A DNA stretch of 64,000 bases from an uncultured Rickettsiales bacterium. GTDB lineage: Bacteria; Pseudomonadota; Alphaproteobacteria; Rickettsiales; UBA1997. The stretch's first letter is position 1. Each line of letters begins with the position of its first letter. This document shows, one piece after another, positions 41,531 to 48,168 of this stretch. The stretch lies in the NCBI GenBank assembly GCA_944392135.1, contig CALXVQ010000005.1, forward strand, positions 1,245 to 65,244, read 5' to 3'. The notes below the pieces were generated by a model. The model saw nothing but the letters and a program-made list of their open reading frames with translations. It did not search any database and was not told where the DNA came from. A program made the position numbers and the translations under genes.

Positions 41531-42352
41531 TTAATCAAAAATAATAGATATAGAAAAGGCATCAGCATTATTATTACCAAAACTTTTAGAGTAGGAAAAT
41601 TCAATTATATAATCATCATTAAATTGATAATTATTTATAAATTTAATTTTATTATTACTTTCTAATGTATAATGATATAATTTTGCATTATTTATTAAAA
41701 GGCTTTCTGGAAAATAATTATATTCATATTGAATTATAAAAGATGATGAATTATATCTAGACAAACCAAAGGTTGTATTTAAAGTAATTTCATCATATCT
41801 AGCATTATTTATTAATTTATAGGAAGTAGATATTTCAAAATAATAACTTAAATTTTTAAAAAGTTGTTTACTATTTCCAAAAGATATTTTCATTTCATAA
41901 CCAGTAGATGTATCTAAGGCATTTAATTTTTTTGAAATTTTAGCATATTTTAGTGGAAAATATAGGGAATATTGTAAGGAAATGCTATTATTAACATCTT
42001 TATATAAATTTTGATTTAAAAATAAATTGGCATATATATCATCACTAATTTTTTGAATTTCCGAACCATACATATCATAATTTATAGAATAAAAATTATA
42101 TTTTTTTATATACCCACCTATGGTTAAATCATTTAATAAACCATATTCAGTGTATAATTGCATATAATTATTTTTATAATAACTATTTTTCTTATTGCCA
42201 AAAATTATATCAATATCATTTGTTTCAGCCGAAAATTCAATAGAAGTAAAAAAATCACCTTTATTTCTAGTCCATGATGAAGAATAAGAATGTTTCAAAA
42301 AACATGAATATAATACTATAAATAAAAATATTATTTTAAAAAAACTCTTCAT
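41531..42352 (-). CDS. predicted outer-membrane beta-barrel protein, last gene of the VirB6-like operon
   Basis: N-terminal signal sequence MKSFFKIIFLFIVLYSC. Tyr/Asn-rich alternating strand pattern throughout. Starts 14 nt after the upstream gene ends. Confidence 0.5.
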   Translation of the reverse strand: MKSFFKIIFLFIVLYSCFLKHSYSSSWTRNKGDFFTSIEFSAETNDIDIIFGNKKNSYYKNNYMQLYTEYGLLNDLTIGGYIKKYNFYSINYDMYGSEIQKISDDIYANLFLNQNLYKDVNNSISLQYSLYFPLKYAKISKKLNALDTSTGYEMKISFGNSKQLFKNLSYYFEISTSYKLINNARYDEITLNTTFGLSRYNSSSFIIQYEYNYFPESLLINNAKLYHYTLESNNKIKFINNYQFNDDYIIEFSYSKSFGNNNADAFSISIIFD

Positions 42353-42366
42353 ATTAAAACTATAAA

Positions 42367-45300
42367 CTAATCCACATCTTCAATTTTAGACCCTTCTTTG
42401 GCACTAGAATCCTCTTTTTTCGTTTTTTTCTCTTCTTCTTGATCATTAGAAGAACTACTACTAAAAGCACTCTCAAATATTTCCCGTATTTCAGCTTCAT
42501 CTTGTGATGATTTAGCACTATCACCAAAATTTCCGGTAAATGCAGAATCTTGCTCAACTTCTTTCATATATTTTTTAGTACTATTTTTACCATATTTATT
42601 ATAATAATACAGTAATCCACTCATGCTGGCAGATTTAAGCAGTTTATAATCGTCTGCTTCATATAAATCATCAATTGTCATATTGGTACTTTTTAAATCT
42701 TTTATTGCATCAGGATTTTCCATCATTCTTCTTCTAAAATCTTCCTTTACCAACTGATTACGTTTTTCTACTTTTTCTGGATCTTTCTCCCAACCCTTTC
42801 CAAACTCCTTATCAAAAGATGCATCAACATCTGTTGAGCTTAATTTTAAAGTTTTTCTTTTTTCTTCTATTAATTTTTGTGCTGCTTCATTTTCCTTAGC
42901 AACATCCTCCCTACTATGATAACCCATACCATGTCCTAACATTTTTAGTCCTTTTCCACCATATTTCATAGCCATATTTTTTAATGGTTTGAGAATCGCA
43001 GTAGTAGTATCAATCATCGCAGAACCAACAGAACTTGAAGACATTTCTGCCCCACCAATTCCAGAACCTAAATTAGCCATAAATTTTAAGAAATTTTTTG
43101 ATAAATATGCTAACAAGAATATCATTAATATTTGCGACAAACCAGGGATTTCATTACTATTAGCTGGCTTCCAAAATATTATAAAATTGAATTTTATGCT
43201 AAGAATTTCAATTCTAAAAATAGGCTCATAACAAACTTTATAGCTAAAAATGCCTTTCAAAATACTAAGTATTATATTATTAAATAGATAAGCACAAGTT
43301 AATAAAAATATTTGTTCAAAAGAAAAACCAATTAAATTGCTAAACCACTTATCAAACATTCCCTTTGTTCTATCAAAAATTAAACATACAAAGAATACAG
43401 GTCCAAATCCTAAAAAGAATGAAACAAAAACTTGAGAAACTGTATATAATACCATTGCTGTAATAAGACTCAATAAGAATAAAAGTATTGAAAACCATAT
43501 CAATGCCCACAATACACAGCCAATAAAACTACTAAAAAATATAGAGCCAATTCTTGCTTGTGTTTTATCATTAAAAATAAAATATATAGCTGAATTCATA
43601 TCTGCAAAGAGAATAGATTTATCGCCATAAAATCCTTTTTCAATAGCATTAGCAATATTGGCATTATTAGAAAAAGAATTTGCTATGGAATAAGATATAT
43701 AATCCATACCATCTTTAAAGAAAGATACAAAAGTATTTCTATATATATCCCAACCTATATTACTTATCATTAAATATATAAATGATATTTTAATTAATTT
43801 TTTAATTAATTCTTCTTGATTAAAATCTGCCAAACCAAGTAAAAAATATAAGCCATAAAAACTAAACATTAAAGCAAAAGAAACAGTTATTAATCTATTA
43901 TATGTTTCGTCTTGTATAATATTATTATAAAATCTTTCAACAAAACCAGTACCACTATTAAAAACCCTACAAGATTTATAATATTGGTCTAATGATAAAT
44001 TTTTACAACTTTTATAGCAGTCATATTGTCCTTGTATACATTCAGTTCCAACATCTCTTGCATGGTTGCCACCCTCTTCATAATTATAAAAAGTATAACA
44101 ATCTCCTGATTTTTCAGCTGTACTGTCACAAGGCACCAACATATTATTATTATCAACTAATAGTTCCATATTTTTGCCATCAAAAATTTCAAATATTGGA
44201 GCCATTAACAGACTAGATAAACCTGACTCCATCCAACCACTCTCAACTCCATTATCAATATTAAGTTGTATTTTATAATCACCAGAATTATTTGCGGTTA
44301 GATCCGAACTACATCTTGTAAATTTTTTTTGTTCTATTGATACTGATTCATCACAAGCCACAGCAGTACAACTTCTATACATATTATCATTTTCATCACT
44401 ACATTTACACAAAATTTCATCTATAAGCACACCTTTTTCACCTTCACCACCATTAGTTGTACAAGTTTCATACAAATCAACAATCTTAAAAAATAATCTA
44501 ACTTTTTCCATTGAAGCTGATGATAAGCCTGGAAAATTTGTAGAATTTAATACAATTCTATAATTATCAGTGCCCTTTTTTACTAATCTACCATTACTAT
44601 CAAATTCATAGGCAGATGATGGATCTAATTGTCCATAATCCGTAGAAGTAGAATCTGTATTATATTTTACAAGCCAACTAATTGGTTCTGTGGTATTATT
44701 ATTTCCATCCCAATCTGAATATGCTAATGCAACAGAAATTTGTTCACCATTAGCAAAATATTTCATAGGCGAAAAGTCTATTGTATAACTACCATCATTA
44801 TCAGAAGAATTATGAGTAAAACTAAAATCAGAATTATCTAAAACTAAAAAACTAACTATTGAATCATGCTCAACTGGCAAAGTAAAAGTTGATTCATATT
44901 CATCAGTATTATCAGTAGGTTTATAATACATGGTATTAAAATTACCATATTTATTATCACTATCAAAAATATTAGCAAGTTTCCTAGCACCTAACAATAT
45001 ATCATTATTATTTAATTTTCCATTTTCTTTTATTGTTGCAGTATTATCAATACCATTTTCTTCTCTTAATTTTCTATAAGAACCAACATAATTTTCTAAA
45101 TCATAACACTGAATTAAAGAATAAGTACCACTTTCTATTTCATTATCTTGGTTATAAAAATTCACTTCTTCCATTTCAAAACCATCACAAAAAAGTGCTG
45201 GTCTTTCTTCAATTTTTAATACCAAACCATGGGATACACTTTTATAAATATCAGATCCAAGAGGCATAATCTTGCTCTTAATATCATAACCACCACCAGT

Positions 45301-47333: not shown

Positions 47334-47831
47334 TTAAATACAATAATATTTTGTCAAAACTAAATCTAACCTATTTTTTAATTTAATAGATAACGAATTG
47401 AAAAAATTATTCATTAAAGTTTGATCATTTGTATAATTTATAAATCTATTTTCTGATACAACAGAACTTTCTGTGATAATAATTTTACCTCTATCTATAA
47501 CAATATTTTTGCTTGTATCATAAATTTTATAATTAATTAAAAAATTTATACTAATTGTATCTGCGGTAGCATTTTCAGATAAGATTGTTGTTCTTCTATT
47601 CATATTTACATCTAGTTCTATTATCTTATCATCATTTTGATCAATATTTATGCCAGAATTATTTATTAGTGAATTTAATAACTTTTTTTTATTAATATCA
47701 CTTAAATTACTATTATTTAATTTTATTGAAAAAAAAGTATTTGGTATACAATAATTACTACCAATATTGTTATTATGAGAACAAGATATTGTAAAAAATA
47801 ATAAAAATAAAAATAAAAATCTATTACTCAC
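47334..47831 (-). CDS. predicted lipoprotein (size and pattern loosely LptE-like; unassigned)
   Basis: Signal and lipobox LFFTISC. 165 aa. The alternating beta pattern IIELDVNMNRRTTILSE..ISINFLINYKIYD resembles LptE, but I cannot confirm this by eye. Confidence 0.4.
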   Translation of the reverse strand: MSNRFLFLFLLFFTISCSHNNNIGSNYCIPNTFFSIKLNNSNLSDINKKKLLNSLINNSGINIDQNDDKIIELDVNMNRRTTILSENATADTISINFLINYKIYDTSKNIVIDRGKIIITESSVVSENRFINYTNDQTLMNNFFNSLSIKLKNRLDLVLTKYYCI

Positions 47832-47847
47832 AGAATTATAAATATTA

Positions 47848-48168
47848 TTAAACCCTAAATAAAATTCTAACAGAATGACCTATTGTAGTCAAAATATTAT
47901 ATATCGCAACAACAAAAGTTATACCAATAAAAATAAAAATTGGTAATGTTTTTGTTGAGGTTAATACATTAGCCTTAAAAGTGTTAAAATCTTGATATCT
48001 ACGATATTGACTGCTTAAATATTTTGAATTATTTTTTGCTTCTAACAATTCTTCATTTTTTTGTTTTTTATATTCTTCAAAATTTTTATGGCTACTTTCT
48101 TCATGATAAGTAGAAATATTTTTCTTAATAAATTTTGACATAAGTTCTTGATTTTCAGTATCAGTCAT
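47848..48168 (-). CDS. hypothetical tail-anchored small protein, first gene of the operon
   Basis: 106 aa. Charged N-terminal ~70 aa and a single C-terminal TM helix, LPIFIFIGITFVVAIYNILTTIG. Confidence 0.4.
   Translation of the reverse strand: MTDTENQELMSKFIKKNISTYHEESSHKNFEEYKKQKNEELLEAKNNSKYLSSQYRRYQDFNTFKANVLTSTKTLPIFIFIGITFVVAIYNILTTIGHSVRILFRV

What the first reader, a model, noticed from the sequence alone, without database searches (positions are those of the whole stretch)
41531..48168. Four-gene operon around a giant lipid-anchored, Cys-rich VirB6/TrbL-like protein with its own beta-barrel partner
Four same-strand ORFs are separated by only 16, 62 and 14 nt (48168-47848, 47831-47334, 47271-42367, 42352-41531). 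They look like one transcription unit.

(i) A 106-aa tail-anchored protein.
(ii) A 165-aa lipoprotein with lipobox FFTISC.
(iii) A 1634-aa protein. It has a lipobox (LLTSC), then about 1100 aa of Cys- and Asn-rich sequence with clusters such as CDDYHC, SCTIGNVTCQILQNC, CKCSDENDNMYRSCTAVAC and CIQGQYDCYKSC. A polytopic block follows at nt ~43080-43900 and carries FLGFGPVFFVCLIFDRTKGMFDKWF. That segment resembles the conserved GP.F...F..T...F..W segment of VirB6/TrbL inner-membrane T4SS components. A ~200-aa charged tail ends the protein.
(iv) A 273-aa signal-peptide protein with a beta-barrel-like strand pattern.

Enlarged VirB6 paralogues are known from Rickettsiales rvh systems, but there they lie in tandem next to virB3-virB4. 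Here the picture differs in three ways. A single giant copy lies about 15 kb from the virB4 fragment. It is N-terminally lipidated with a huge Cys-rich ectodomain. It is also coupled to three unassignable envelope proteins, including a dedicated barrel.

This architecture spans inner membrane, lipoprotein and outer membrane. It could be a self-contained envelope-spanning or surface-display module that has not been described.
Basis: partly seen in the sequence, partly recalled or inferred. Interest (0 to 1): 0.8.

Follow-up and report, generated by a model that had tools for sequence, protein, structure and literature searches.

The report
Orphan lipid-anchored giant VirB6 gene cluster
A very large, fast-evolving membrane protein related to a core part of the bacterial type IV secretion machine sits beside three cell-envelope genes in an uncultured Rickettsiales-like symbiont; it is an undescribed branch of a known protein class, not a demonstrably new machine.

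Summary
The four minus-strand ORFs are exactly as described. The 1,634-aa protein has a significant TrbL/VirB6 domain (Pfam E = 4.5e-17), a conserved lipobox, 32 invariant ectodomain cysteines, about 7 TM segments and a variable charged tail.

It belongs to a coherent family of 93 clusters, almost all 1,400-2,700 aa, found only in uncultured Rickettsiales-like MAGs. All share an N-terminal C-x-D/E-x-G-C-I-E-A-D-D-F-G-E motif. The family is never next to virB4 (0 of 60 loci), unlike canonical arrayed VirB6 paralogues.

All four genes stay together in nine loci of one clade. The p106-p165-giant trio recurs in one more lineage.

Three corrections:
- Lipidated extended VirB6 proteins are already known (Anaplasma, Ehrlichia and Wolbachia VirB6-3/-4).
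- The 165-aa lipoprotein has an LptE fold and may simply be LptE.
- An invariant promoter lies directly upstream of the giant gene, so the cluster is probably two transcription units.

The 273-aa protein models as a 12-14-strand outer-membrane barrel, at low confidence. The "virB4 fragment" is an intact gene cut by the window edge.

New: the block is hypervariable (giant 41-68% identical) on 94-99.5% identical backbones.

Verdict: a new variant of a known kind. A self-contained machine is not excluded but not shown.

The parts
48169..48303 (-). Divergent intergenic region between radC and p106, with conserved AT-rich promoter-like elements, including a TATAAT about 35 nt before the p106 start. 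Putative promoter P1.
   Evidence: Alignment of 7 loci. Function is inferred only.
47848..48168 (-). p106: a 106-aa tail-anchored inner-membrane protein. It has a hydrophilic N-terminal ~70 aa and a single TM segment at aa 75-93. No known family.
   Evidence: ORF. TM segment and alignment. No Pfam or NCBIfam hit. Adjacent orthologues in L001-L003, L005-L007 and L020-L022, and a weak one in L034.
47334..47831 (-). p165: a 165-aa lipoprotein (lipobox Cys17, two further conserved Cys) with an LptE-like beta-alpha-beta-beta-beta-alpha fold. Possibly this organism's divergent LptE.
   Evidence: AF2 pLDDT 74, pTM 0.66. The Foldseek PDB top hits are LptE chains, E down to 2.5e-6, TM 0.45-0.53. No Pfam LptE hit in 6 members. 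The L034 orthologue has a weak LptE hit, E = 0.2.
47300..47327 (-). Conserved internal promoter-like element directly upstream of the giant gene: TTGAAA, 16 nt, TG-A-TAAAAT (extended -10). Putative promoter P2.
   Evidence: Consensus scan, 10 of 12 matches with TG. Nearly invariant across 8 loci, including L005/L006 where the flanking proteins are <50% identical.
47209..47271 (-). Giant protein aa 1-21: signal peptide ending in the lipobox L-T-S-C21.
   Evidence: S20 and C21 are invariant in 28 diverse members.
43894..47208 (-). Giant protein aa 22-1126: Cys-rich ectodomain. It has 32 invariant Cys after the lipidated Cys, the N-terminal motif C-x-x-x-x-C-I-E-A-N-D-x-G-E, and a most-conserved core at about aa 500-740. 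No known domain. It evolves fast (dN/dS 0.49-0.64).
   Evidence: Alignments A1 and A8. Exhaustive profile search found 93 clusters. No Pfam or PDB match. dN/dS.
43075..43893 (-). Giant protein aa 1127-1399: polytopic TrbL/VirB6 block of about 7 TM segments, with a 64-aa loop at 1177-1240 and the invariant GP.F..F..T...F..W(1309) motif. This is the most conserved part (dN/dS 0.19-0.31).
   Evidence: Pfam PF04610 aa 1135-1339, E = 4.5e-17. Hydropathy. Invariants. dN/dS.
42367..43074 (-). Giant protein aa 1400-1634 plus stop codon: charged, low-complexity C-terminal tail, predicted cytoplasmic. This is the most variable part (28-37% identity, dN/dS 0.71-0.77).
   Evidence: The topology is inferred.
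41531..42352 (-). p273: a 273-aa protein with a type I signal peptide, predicted to be a 12-14-strand outer-membrane beta-barrel. No known family. Found only in the gut clade.
   Evidence: AF2 pLDDT 51, all-beta. Foldseek hits are all OM barrels (OmpG, NanC, KdgM, FapF, intimin, EspP), TM 0.4-0.5. No Pfam hit for 7 members. Absent downstream of the giants in L034.
62928..64000 (-). Context: the C-terminal third of virB4, cut by the window edge. The full gene is 841 aa and is followed by an LRR protein and an SDR gene, not by virB6 genes.
   Evidence: tblastn. L017 gene table with VirB4 Pfam domains. 100% nucleotide identity over 1,073 nt.

Best explanation
The 1,634-aa protein is a lipoprotein-type 'extended VirB6'. 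It is a polytopic TrbL/VirB6 inner-membrane domain, of the kind that forms the inner-membrane base of type IV secretion machines. A ~1,100-aa disulfide-rich domain precedes it; this domain is exported by Sec, lipid-anchored at Cys21 and located in the periplasm or at the surface. A variable cytoplasmic tail follows.

It is one member of an undescribed but widespread subfamily in uncultured Rickettsiales-like bacteria. This subfamily has left the virB3-virB4-virB6 array and lives at housekeeping loci.

Most likely it still works with the organism's scattered rvh-type T4SS, which has an intact VirB4 15 kb away. The rvh system lacks VirB5, so the ectodomain would supply the missing periplasmic or surface-facing part (inference). 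Its rapid, mosaic evolution fits a host-facing role like that reported for surface-exposed VirB6-3/-4 of Anaplasmataceae (inference).

The cluster is best read as two adjacent units:
- p106 plus p165, where p165 is an LptE-fold outer-membrane lipoprotein and quite possibly the LPS-translocon lipoprotein itself.
- The giant gene plus p273 (a small outer-membrane barrel), driven from their own conserved promoter.

**Shown:** domain identity, conservation of the lipobox and cysteines, family extent, synteny, fold classes of the partners, the conserved promoter sequence, the divergence pattern.
**Inferred:** topology, T4SS participation, any physical contact among the four proteins.
For: - TrbL/VirB6 is above Pfam's gathering score. 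W1309 and the GP..F motif are invariant across 28 members.
- The closest relative outside the family is an rvh-like VirB6 (P0008, TrbL E = 4e-24).
- VirB4 is intact in the same strain.
- Ectodomain profile search: 93 clusters, and all 75 long members carry TrbL.
- TrbL scores are bimodal: giant-type at least 139 bits, canonical arrayed VirB6 at most 98 bits.
- In L016 a TrbC/VirB2-domain gene follows the giant gene.
- Literature: the extended-VirB6 class, lipoboxes in VirB6-3/-4, surface exposure and immunogenicity (PMC7648143); rvh hallmarks are multicopy RvhB6 and no VirB5 (PMC11077975; PMC8035066).
- Synteny and small gaps in nine loci.
- The internal promoter is invariant in 8 loci.
- Partner folds.
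- Hypervariability: giant 41-68% identical against PIF1 97-99.5%, LpxD 96% and RRF 99.5%. dS is 0.8-0.96 against 0.2-0.3. dN/dS is below 1, and the Cys residues are invariant.
Against: - The giant-type family is never next to VirB4 (0 of 60 loci). Canonical VirB6 arrays are (5 of 15 short loci, plus L012). This would also fit a T4SS-independent role.
- The rest of the genome was not available, so the presence of VirB8-11/D4 and of canonical RvhB6 paralogues is unknown.
- No structure could be obtained for the ectodomain, and no known domain was found in it.
- The p273 model has low confidence.
- The variable block also includes radC, a pseudopilin gene and p180. So co-variation is not specific to the four genes.
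- Homology of the ectodomain to Anaplasmataceae VirB6-3 was not tested directly.
Confidence: 0.5

Rival explanations
1. There is no functional module. Only the giant gene is T4SS-related. p165 is simply the housekeeping LPS-assembly lipoprotein LptE, p273 is a general small outer-membrane protein or porin, and p106 is an unrelated membrane protein. The adjacency is historical: an ancestral lptE(-holA) neighbourhood kept in slowly rearranging reduced genomes.
For: - The p165 model matches LptE first and repeatedly.
- The L034 orthologue starts C-G-F-K-S-V-Y and has a co-linear sub-threshold Pfam LptE hit.
- In L016 a true holA, the canonical lptE neighbour in E. coli, lies directly upstream of the giant gene.
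- The organism makes LPS, since lpxD and fabZ are in the window, so it needs an LptE.
- A conserved promoter separates p106-p165 from giant-p273.
- Upstream synteny (radC to PIF1) is also conserved, so gene order is generally stable here.
- Fifty-nine giant-type loci lack recognisable partners.
Against: - No Pfam or NCBIfam LptE hit at threshold for any member. No profile similarity to E. coli LptE.
- The p106-p165-giant trio persists in three different flank contexts: radC, an ftsW-like gene, and pal.
- The four-gene block survives a breakpoint immediately after p273 in several loci.
- p165 is 47-88% identical where housekeeping proteins are 94-99%, and it tracks the divergence tiers of the giant protein.
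Confidence: 0.28
2. The cluster is a self-contained envelope-spanning or surface-display device that no longer belongs to a T4SS. The TrbL block is the inner-membrane anchor or channel. The lipidated 1,100-aa ectodomain bridges the periplasm. An LptE-like lipoprotein plus a small barrel form its outer-membrane station, and p106 is an inner-membrane accessory.
For: - The family is systematically unlinked from virB4 (0 of 60) and forms its own TrbL subgroup.
- It sits in fixed housekeeping contexts, for example rlmH-coaD-Elm1-giant-prepilin-like-tatC in about 23 loci.
- In this clade it has inner-membrane, lipoprotein and barrel-type neighbours.
- In L025 an independent small OM barrel (PagL family) lies directly upstream of a giant gene.
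- Pairs of an LptE-fold lipoprotein with a barrel are a recurring design in envelope systems such as LptDE. PelC also appears lower in the Foldseek list.
Against: - rvh genes are normally scattered, and unlinked VirB6 paralogues are known (PMC2653234).
- The same strain keeps an intact VirB4.
- A TrbC/VirB2-domain gene follows the giant gene in L016.
- A 12-14-strand barrel is too small to hold an LptE-like plug (established from LptDE structures).
- A domain with up to 16 disulfides could not thread a small barrel after folding (inference).
- The partners are missing from most family loci.
- No interaction evidence of any kind.
Confidence: 0.15
3. The giant gene is a decaying or functionless relic of a duplicated virB6. 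Its fast divergence reflects relaxed constraint.
For: High dN/dS in the ectodomain and tail (0.5-0.77) and very low identity between close strains.
Against: - The ORFs are intact at 1,400-2,700 aa in about 75 clusters and 69 metagenomic ORFs.
- Thirty-two Cys residues, many sequence blocks and the promoter are invariant.
- dN/dS is below 1 everywhere, and 0.19-0.31 in the TrbL block.
- Tandem duplicates are retained in nine loci.
Confidence: 0.03

Closest known systems
Anaplasmataceae VirB6-3 (and VirB6-4): 'extended VirB6-like' lipoproteins of the rvh T4SS in A. phagocytophilum, E. chaffeensis and Wolbachia
   Same: A predicted lipobox at the N-terminus, a large hydrophilic N-terminal extension, the TrbL/VirB6 block towards the C-terminus (VirB6-1 to -3), and very large size. 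Reported as surface-exposed and immunogenic, and among the most variable T4SS parts (PMC7648143; PMC2653234).
   Different: - Those genes lie in the virB3-virB4-virB6 array; this family never does (0 of 60).
- The Cys-rich ectodomain with the C-x-D-x-G-C-I-E-A-D-D-F-G-E motif was found only in uncultured MAGs among the 20 clusters whose names I looked up.
- Direct homology of the extensions was not tested.
- No LptE-fold lipoprotein or barrel neighbours are reported for them.
Rickettsia RvhB6a-e (arrayed VirB6 paralogues, 674-1,154 aa)
   Same: A TrbL/VirB6 domain flanked by divergent N- and C-terminal extensions, an invariant Trp, and a T4SS that lacks VirB5.
   Different: They are arrayed after virB3-virB4, they are smaller, and no ectodomain match appeared in the exhaustive profile search. 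Canonical-type TrbL domains score 98 bits or less against this family's profile, against 139 bits or more within the family.
F-type TraG and other extended VirB6 proteins (Alvarez-Martinez and Christie class)
   Same: A VirB6-like polytopic domain fused to a large extracytoplasmic hydrophilic domain, used for cell-surface or partner contacts.
   Different: The extension is C-terminal in TraG and N-terminal and lipidated here. No sequence similarity was detected: tblastn against 72,556 plasmids found nothing.
LptE (LPS-assembly lipoprotein, the plug of the LptD barrel)
   Same: p165 has the same size class, an N-terminal lipid anchor and the same beta-alpha-beta-beta-beta-alpha fold. LptE chains are its best structural matches.
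   Different: - No Pfam or NCBIfam match at threshold.
- It is not in a leuS-lptE-holA context.
- It sits beside a giant VirB6 gene in three lineages.
- The neighbouring barrel (273 aa) is far too small to be LptD.

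Membership tests
TrbL/VirB6 (PF04610) | Profile match above the curated threshold | tested here: met
   63 bits against a cut-off of 25.9, E = 4.5e-17, aa 1135-1339. Also met in four divergent family members.
TrbL/VirB6 (PF04610) | Polytopic inner-membrane domain with five or more hydrophobic helices | tested here: met
   About 7 hydrophobic segments at aa 1127-1399, from family-averaged hydropathy. No dedicated TM predictor was available.
TrbL/VirB6 (PF04610) | Conserved Trp in the TM-cytoplasmic region (essential in A. 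tumefaciens VirB6) | tested here: inconclusive
   W1309, in F-D-K-W, is invariant across 28 members and lies inside the Pfam-matched block. Its positional equivalence to the A. tumefaciens Trp was not checked by alignment (literature).
TrbL/VirB6 (PF04610) | Encoded with, and working in, a T4SS (VirB4 and the rest) | tested here: inconclusive
   An intact VirB4 lies 15 kb away in the same strain. But no giant-type locus has VirB4 within 10 kb (0 of 60). The rest of the genome was not available.
Extended VirB6 lipoproteins (Anaplasmataceae VirB6-3 type) | N-terminal lipobox | tested here: met
   L-T-S-C21. S20 and C21 are invariant in 28 members. The motif is present in 55 of 58 complete metagenomic ORFs. 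Acylation itself cannot be tested here.
Extended VirB6 lipoproteins (Anaplasmataceae VirB6-3 type) | Large hydrophilic N-terminal extension with TrbL towards the C-terminus | tested here: met
   Ectodomain at aa 22-1126, TrbL at 1127-1399.
Extended VirB6 lipoproteins (Anaplasmataceae VirB6-3 type) | Position in the virB3-virB4-virB6 array | tested here: not met
   The gene is orphan. virB4 is followed by LRR and SDR genes. 0 of 60 family loci have VirB4 nearby.
Extended VirB6 lipoproteins (Anaplasmataceae VirB6-3 type) | Sequence homology of the extension to VirB6-3 | not tested
   No Anaplasmataceae sequence was on hand. None of the 20 ectodomain-family clusters I looked up came from a named genus.
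Extended VirB6 lipoproteins (Anaplasmataceae VirB6-3 type) | Surface exposure | not testable with these tools
   Needs protease shaving or immunolabelling.
LptE (PF04390), for p165 | Small outer-membrane lipoprotein with the LptE fold | tested here: met
   Lipobox Cys17 is conserved. AF2 pLDDT 74. The Foldseek top hits are LptE, E = 2.5e-6, TM 0.45-0.53.
LptE (PF04390), for p165 | Sequence-profile match | tested here: not met
   No hit at E <= 10 in six members. NCBIfam finds none. hhalign against E. coli LptE finds nothing. The only signal is a sub-threshold co-linear hit in the L034 orthologue (E = 0.2).
LptE (PF04390), for p165 | Gene context leuS-lptE-holA, and being the only lptE in the genome | tested here: inconclusive
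   Not next to leuS or holA in the window. In L016, holA lies directly upstream of a giant gene. The whole genome was not available to look for another lptE.
Outer-membrane beta-barrel, for p273 | Signal peptide plus a closed antiparallel barrel with an even number of strands | tested here: inconclusive
   The signal peptide is conserved. AF2 gives 13-14 strands but pLDDT is only 51. All 50 listed Foldseek hits are OM barrels. No Pfam family matches.
Outer-membrane beta-barrel, for p273 | C-terminal beta-signal ending in an aromatic residue | tested here: inconclusive
   The family ends in I-I-F-D, I-I-F-K, I-V-F-N or I-F-A. The Phe is conserved at the penultimate position, not the last.
Single operon | Same strand, short gaps, no internal promoter or terminator | tested here: not met
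   Same strand, with small gaps in nine loci, and no terminator found. But a promoter-like element is invariant before the giant gene. Transcripts cannot be tested here.

The most novel reading that the evidence does not exclude
The giant-type lipo-VirB6 family has been exapted out of the T4SS into an autonomous trans-envelope device. It would be a single polypeptide anchored in the inner membrane by a VirB6 channel domain, with a disulfide-stapled 1,100-2,000-aa arm held at its far end by a lipid anchor. In the gut clade this arm would dock to a dedicated LptE-fold lipoprotein and a small barrel in the outer membrane, and would diversify rapidly because it faces the host.
Probability: 0.15. 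Interest if true: 0.8.

Novelty: new variant of a known kind. Interest (0 to 1): 0.45.

Why it matters
How the Rickettsiales T4SS works without VirB5, and what its enlarged VirB6 proteins do, are open questions. This family offers a clean comparative handle on them:

- It has about 90 clusters that share one conserved, disulfide-rich ectodomain and one N-terminal motif.
- It is separated from the virB4 array.
- It is sometimes duplicated in tandem.
- In one clade it is flanked by an LptE-fold lipoprotein and a small barrel.

Its extreme divergence on near-identical genomic backbones marks it as a likely host-facing or otherwise diversifying surface component in uncultured symbionts. If the ectodomain proves to be the periplasmic or surface arm of the machine, it would show how a T4SS can replace its stalk or tip. 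If it acts alone, it would be a new envelope system derived from a T4SS part.

Tried and rejected
- **PDB sequence searches.** Profiles for the whole giant family, p165, p273 and the conserved ectodomain core found nothing significant.
- **Pfam on other sequences.** Four divergent giants, 24 core-domain segments, and all p165 and p273 family members gave only TrbL.
- **tblastn of the TrbL block against 72,556 plasmids.** No match (one search failed on a frame error).
- **hhalign of the p165 family against authentic E. coli LptE.** No similarity beyond the lipobox.
- **JGI metagenome scan with the p165 family.** No relatives.
- **Partner profiles against distant loci.** Nothing except in L034. 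p273 is not detectably related to the PagL-family barrel in L025.
- **Promoter and terminator consensus scans.** Uninformative on their own in this AT-rich DNA: 65 sites found against 63 expected. Only cross-locus conservation made one site credible.
- **Asp at +2 as a Lol-avoidance signal for the giant protein.** Considered and dropped. The +2 residue varies (D, T, S, E, K, N, A) across the family.
- **p106 as VirB3 or VirB2.** Considered and rejected. It has a single C-terminal TM segment and no profile hit.

Full report
**1. Observation**

ORF listing confirms four minus-strand ORFs at the coordinates given: 106, 165, 1,634 and 273 aa, separated by 16, 62 and 14 nt. The window has about 24% GC and no compositional break at the cluster. 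It is chromosomal and carries dnaA, ftsH, secD, lpxD/fabZ, murD, ftsW, lnt, a T2SS/T4P GspF-like gene, pseudopilins, an Fe-only hydrogenase, and ankyrin and LRR proteins.

- p106 has one C-terminal TM segment.
- p165 has a conserved lipobox Cys.
- p273 has a type I signal peptide.
- The giant protein has a lipobox (Cys21), 34 Cys before aa 1101, hydrophobic segments at aa 1127-1399, and a 235-aa charged tail.

The 'virB4 fragment' is the 3' third of a gene cut by the window's right end. On a 100% identical contig it is an intact 841-aa VirB4. It is followed by LRR and SDR genes, and there is no virB3 or virB6 beside it.

**2. The giant protein**

Pfam TrbL/VirB6 matches aa 1135-1339 (E = 4.5e-17, 63 bits against a cut-off of 25.9). 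Nothing else in the protein matches Pfam, NCBIfam or PDB sequences.

The first homology search found only eight clusters. Seven are full-length at 47-99% identity. In their alignment the lipobox, 33 cysteines, many ectodomain blocks and the whole TrbL block are invariant.

GTDB representative genomes place full-length relatives (26-41% identity) in uncultured 'Rickettsiales bacterium' MAGs.

An exhaustive profile search with the ectodomain alone, against 1.84 billion representatives, found 93 clusters. Of these, 72 have E <= 1e-10. Almost all are 1,400-2,700 aa. All 75 long members carry a TrbL block downstream. Most start with a signal peptide, then a lipobox Cys, then the motif C-x-[DE]-x-G-C-I-[ED]-A-[DN]-D-F-G-E-[YF].

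Source names are only generic: 'type IV secretion system protein', 'VirB6-like' or 'hypothetical'. All come from MAGs.

The most widely conserved ectodomain segment (about aa 500-740) matches no Pfam family and no solved structure.

Family-averaged hydropathy suggests about 7 TM segments. With the N-terminal domain outside, the tail would be cytoplasmic (inference).

**3. Relation to canonical VirB6**

A second metagenome scan gave 72 loci. Scores against this family's TrbL profile are bimodal:

| Type | ORFs | Loci | TrbL score | Arrangement | VirB4 in the locus |
|---|---|---|---|---|---|
| Giant-type | 69 | 60 | at least 139 bits | two in tandem in nine loci | 0 of 60 |
| Canonical-type (700-1,700 aa) | 27 | 15 | at most 98 bits | tandem arrays of up to four | 5 of 15 |

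L012 has the same canonical virB4-virB6 arrangement.

Giant-type genes sit at housekeeping loci. About 23 loci share the order rlmH, coaD, Elm1-like, giant, prepilin-like, tatC. Others lie next to dnaA, holA or lipid A genes. In one locus a 780-aa TrbC/VirB2-domain gene follows the giant gene.

So this is a distinct, orphan VirB6 subfamily.

**4. The partners and the 'operon'**

p106, p165 and p273 orthologues flank the giant gene in the same order, with small gaps, in nine loci: L001-L003, L005-L007 and L020-L022. The downstream flank differs between loci (zupT, mraZ, pgpA or an SDR gene). In L007 both flanks differ.

Each partner family has only seven cluster hits, with no names and no Pfam domains.

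*p273.* The AF2 model is poor (pLDDT 51), but it is all-beta with 13-14 strands. Its only structural matches are outer-membrane barrels of 12-16 strands, at TM 0.4-0.5.

*p165.* The model is usable (pLDDT 74, pTM 0.66). Its best matches are LptE chains from many LptDE structures, with E down to 2.5e-6 and TM 0.45-0.53. At the sequence level there is no LptE signal in the close clade.

In L034, a lineage whose giant is 31% identical, p106-like and p165-like genes again precede two tandem giants. That p165 orthologue begins C-G-F-K-S-V-Y and has a weak, co-linear Pfam LptE hit (E = 0.2). The giants in L034 are followed by a membrane protein with an HEMSH motif, not by a barrel. In L016 the gene upstream of the giant is holA, which is the usual neighbour of lptE.

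So p165 may be a divergent genuine LptE. This could not be settled without the whole genome.

*Promoter.* The 60-62-nt spacer before the giant gene contains TTGAAA-N16-TG-A-TAAAAT. This is nearly invariant in eight loci, even where the neighbouring proteins are under 50% identical. The radC-p106 intergenic region also has conserved promoter-like elements. The cluster therefore probably has two promoters, although read-through is possible since no terminator was found.

**5. An unexpected pattern**

Amino-acid identity to the window across six related strains or species:

| Protein | Identity to the window |
|---|---|
| PIF1 | 97-99.5% |
| DagK | 92-96% |
| FabZ | 98% |
| LpxD | 96% |
| MurD | 94% |
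| RRF | 99.5% |
| CdsA | 95.6% |
| Giant protein | 41-68% |
| p106 | 43-78% |
| p165 | 47-88% |
| p273 | 62-75% |

Synonymous divergence is about 0.8-0.96 in the giant gene, against 0.2-0.3 in the flanks. There is a sharp step between p165 (dS 0.16) and the giant gene (dS 0.80) in the window-L001 comparison. This implies a mosaic, recombining locus that holds old alleles.

Within the giant protein, dN/dS is 0.19-0.31 in the TrbL block, 0.49-0.64 in the ectodomain and 0.71-0.77 in the tail.

The variable zone also covers radC, a pseudopilin gene and p180. It is therefore a block of about 9.5 kb, not just the four genes.

**6. Comparison with what is known**

'Extended VirB6' proteins are an established class. 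In Rickettsiales, multicopy enlarged VirB6 and the absence of VirB5 are hallmarks of the rvh system.

The architecture seen here, lipobox plus N-terminal extension plus C-proximal TrbL, is reported for A. phagocytophilum VirB6-3. VirB6-4 also has a lipobox but carries TrbL towards its N-terminus. VirB6-3 of E. chaffeensis and Wolbachia is reported as a putative lipoprotein. These proteins are reported as surface-exposed and immunogenic (PMC7648143).

What I did not find described:
- this particular Cys-rich ectodomain family and its N-terminal motif;
- its systematic separation from virB4;
- the LptE-fold lipoprotein and barrel neighbours;
- the hypervariability on a conserved backbone.

**7. 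Verdict**

The best reading (about 0.5) is an orphan, lipoprotein-type extended VirB6 of the rvh lineage with a fast-evolving periplasmic or surface arm. Next to it are an LptE-like lipoprotein unit (p106-p165) and a co-promoted small barrel (p273).

The main rival (about 0.28) is that the neighbours are functionally unrelated and p165 is plain LptE. A relic gene is unlikely (about 0.03).

Noticed in passing
window 41531-50337 compared with L001, L003, L006, L020-L022: A block of about 9.5 kb (p180, pseudopilin, radC, p106, p165, giant, p273) is far more diverged than its flanks. The giant protein is 41-68% identical, against PIF1 at 97-99.5%. dS is about 0.8-1.0 in the block and 0.2-0.3 in the flanks. 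There is a step between p165 (dS 0.16) and the giant gene (0.80) in the window-L001 pair. This suggests recombination of old alleles.
   Followed up: partly
window 33479-40495 (-): A 2,338-aa protein made of many degenerate repeats of about 90-100 aa (units such as '...AIYDSNTNQIISSGQDNSI...'). It ends in a hydrophobic segment and a basic tail. It lies just downstream of the cluster, beyond zupT. It may be a surface or secreted repeat protein.
   Followed up: no
window 20004-21317 (-); 25942-26613 (+); 62437-62919 (-): An Fe-only hydrogenase (large subunit, 4Fe-4S domains), an ankyrin-repeat protein and an LRR protein occur in a 24% GC genome with Rickettsiales relatives. This fits an anaerobic, host-associated symbiont. 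The sample names of the related contigs (BRZ_, Nepal_, ERR4096xxx) hint at gut metagenomes, but I did not verify this.
   Followed up: no
L017 174-3779 (beyond the window's right end): A 1,201-aa gene with gene-transfer-agent tail domains (GTA_TIM, Phage-tail_3) lies about 2 kb upstream of the intact virB4.
   Followed up: no
L015, L011, L028, L029, L042, L077 and others (about 23 of 60 giant-type loci): A prepilin-like protein of about 233-243 aa (N-terminal F-T-x-x-E helix, no Pfam hit) recurs immediately downstream of the giant gene, followed by tatC. The window's 286-aa pseudopilin (2265-3125, next to dnaA) matches this family's profile (E = 6e-11 in a two-sequence search).
   Followed up: partly
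L034, L050, L056, L057, L068-L070, L074, L075: Two giant-type lipo-VirB6 genes lie in tandem in nine metagenomic loci, so the family also duplicates locally.
   Followed up: no
L016 16191-18533; L025 9196-9909: In L016 a 780-aa protein with an N-terminal TrbC/VirB2 pilin domain follows the giant gene. In L025 a PagL-family outer-membrane barrel lies directly upstream of a giant gene, next to lpxK and lpxL.
   Followed up: partly
window 26600-28600: An ORF-poor stretch of about 2 kb between the ankyrin gene and rpmA/rplU. It has locally GC-richer short repeats, including a 40-nt unit with CTCGCAATG motifs repeated 147 nt apart at 27887 and 28034. Rfam finds nothing there.
   Followed up: partly
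L004 10001-15061 (P0008): A different giant VirB6 of 1,686 aa: a type I signal peptide, an N-terminal domain of about 400 aa, TrbL at aa 433-659 and a C-terminal extension of about 1,000 aa. It is also orphan, among housekeeping genes. So more than one kind of unlinked giant VirB6 exists in these lineages.
   Followed up: partly
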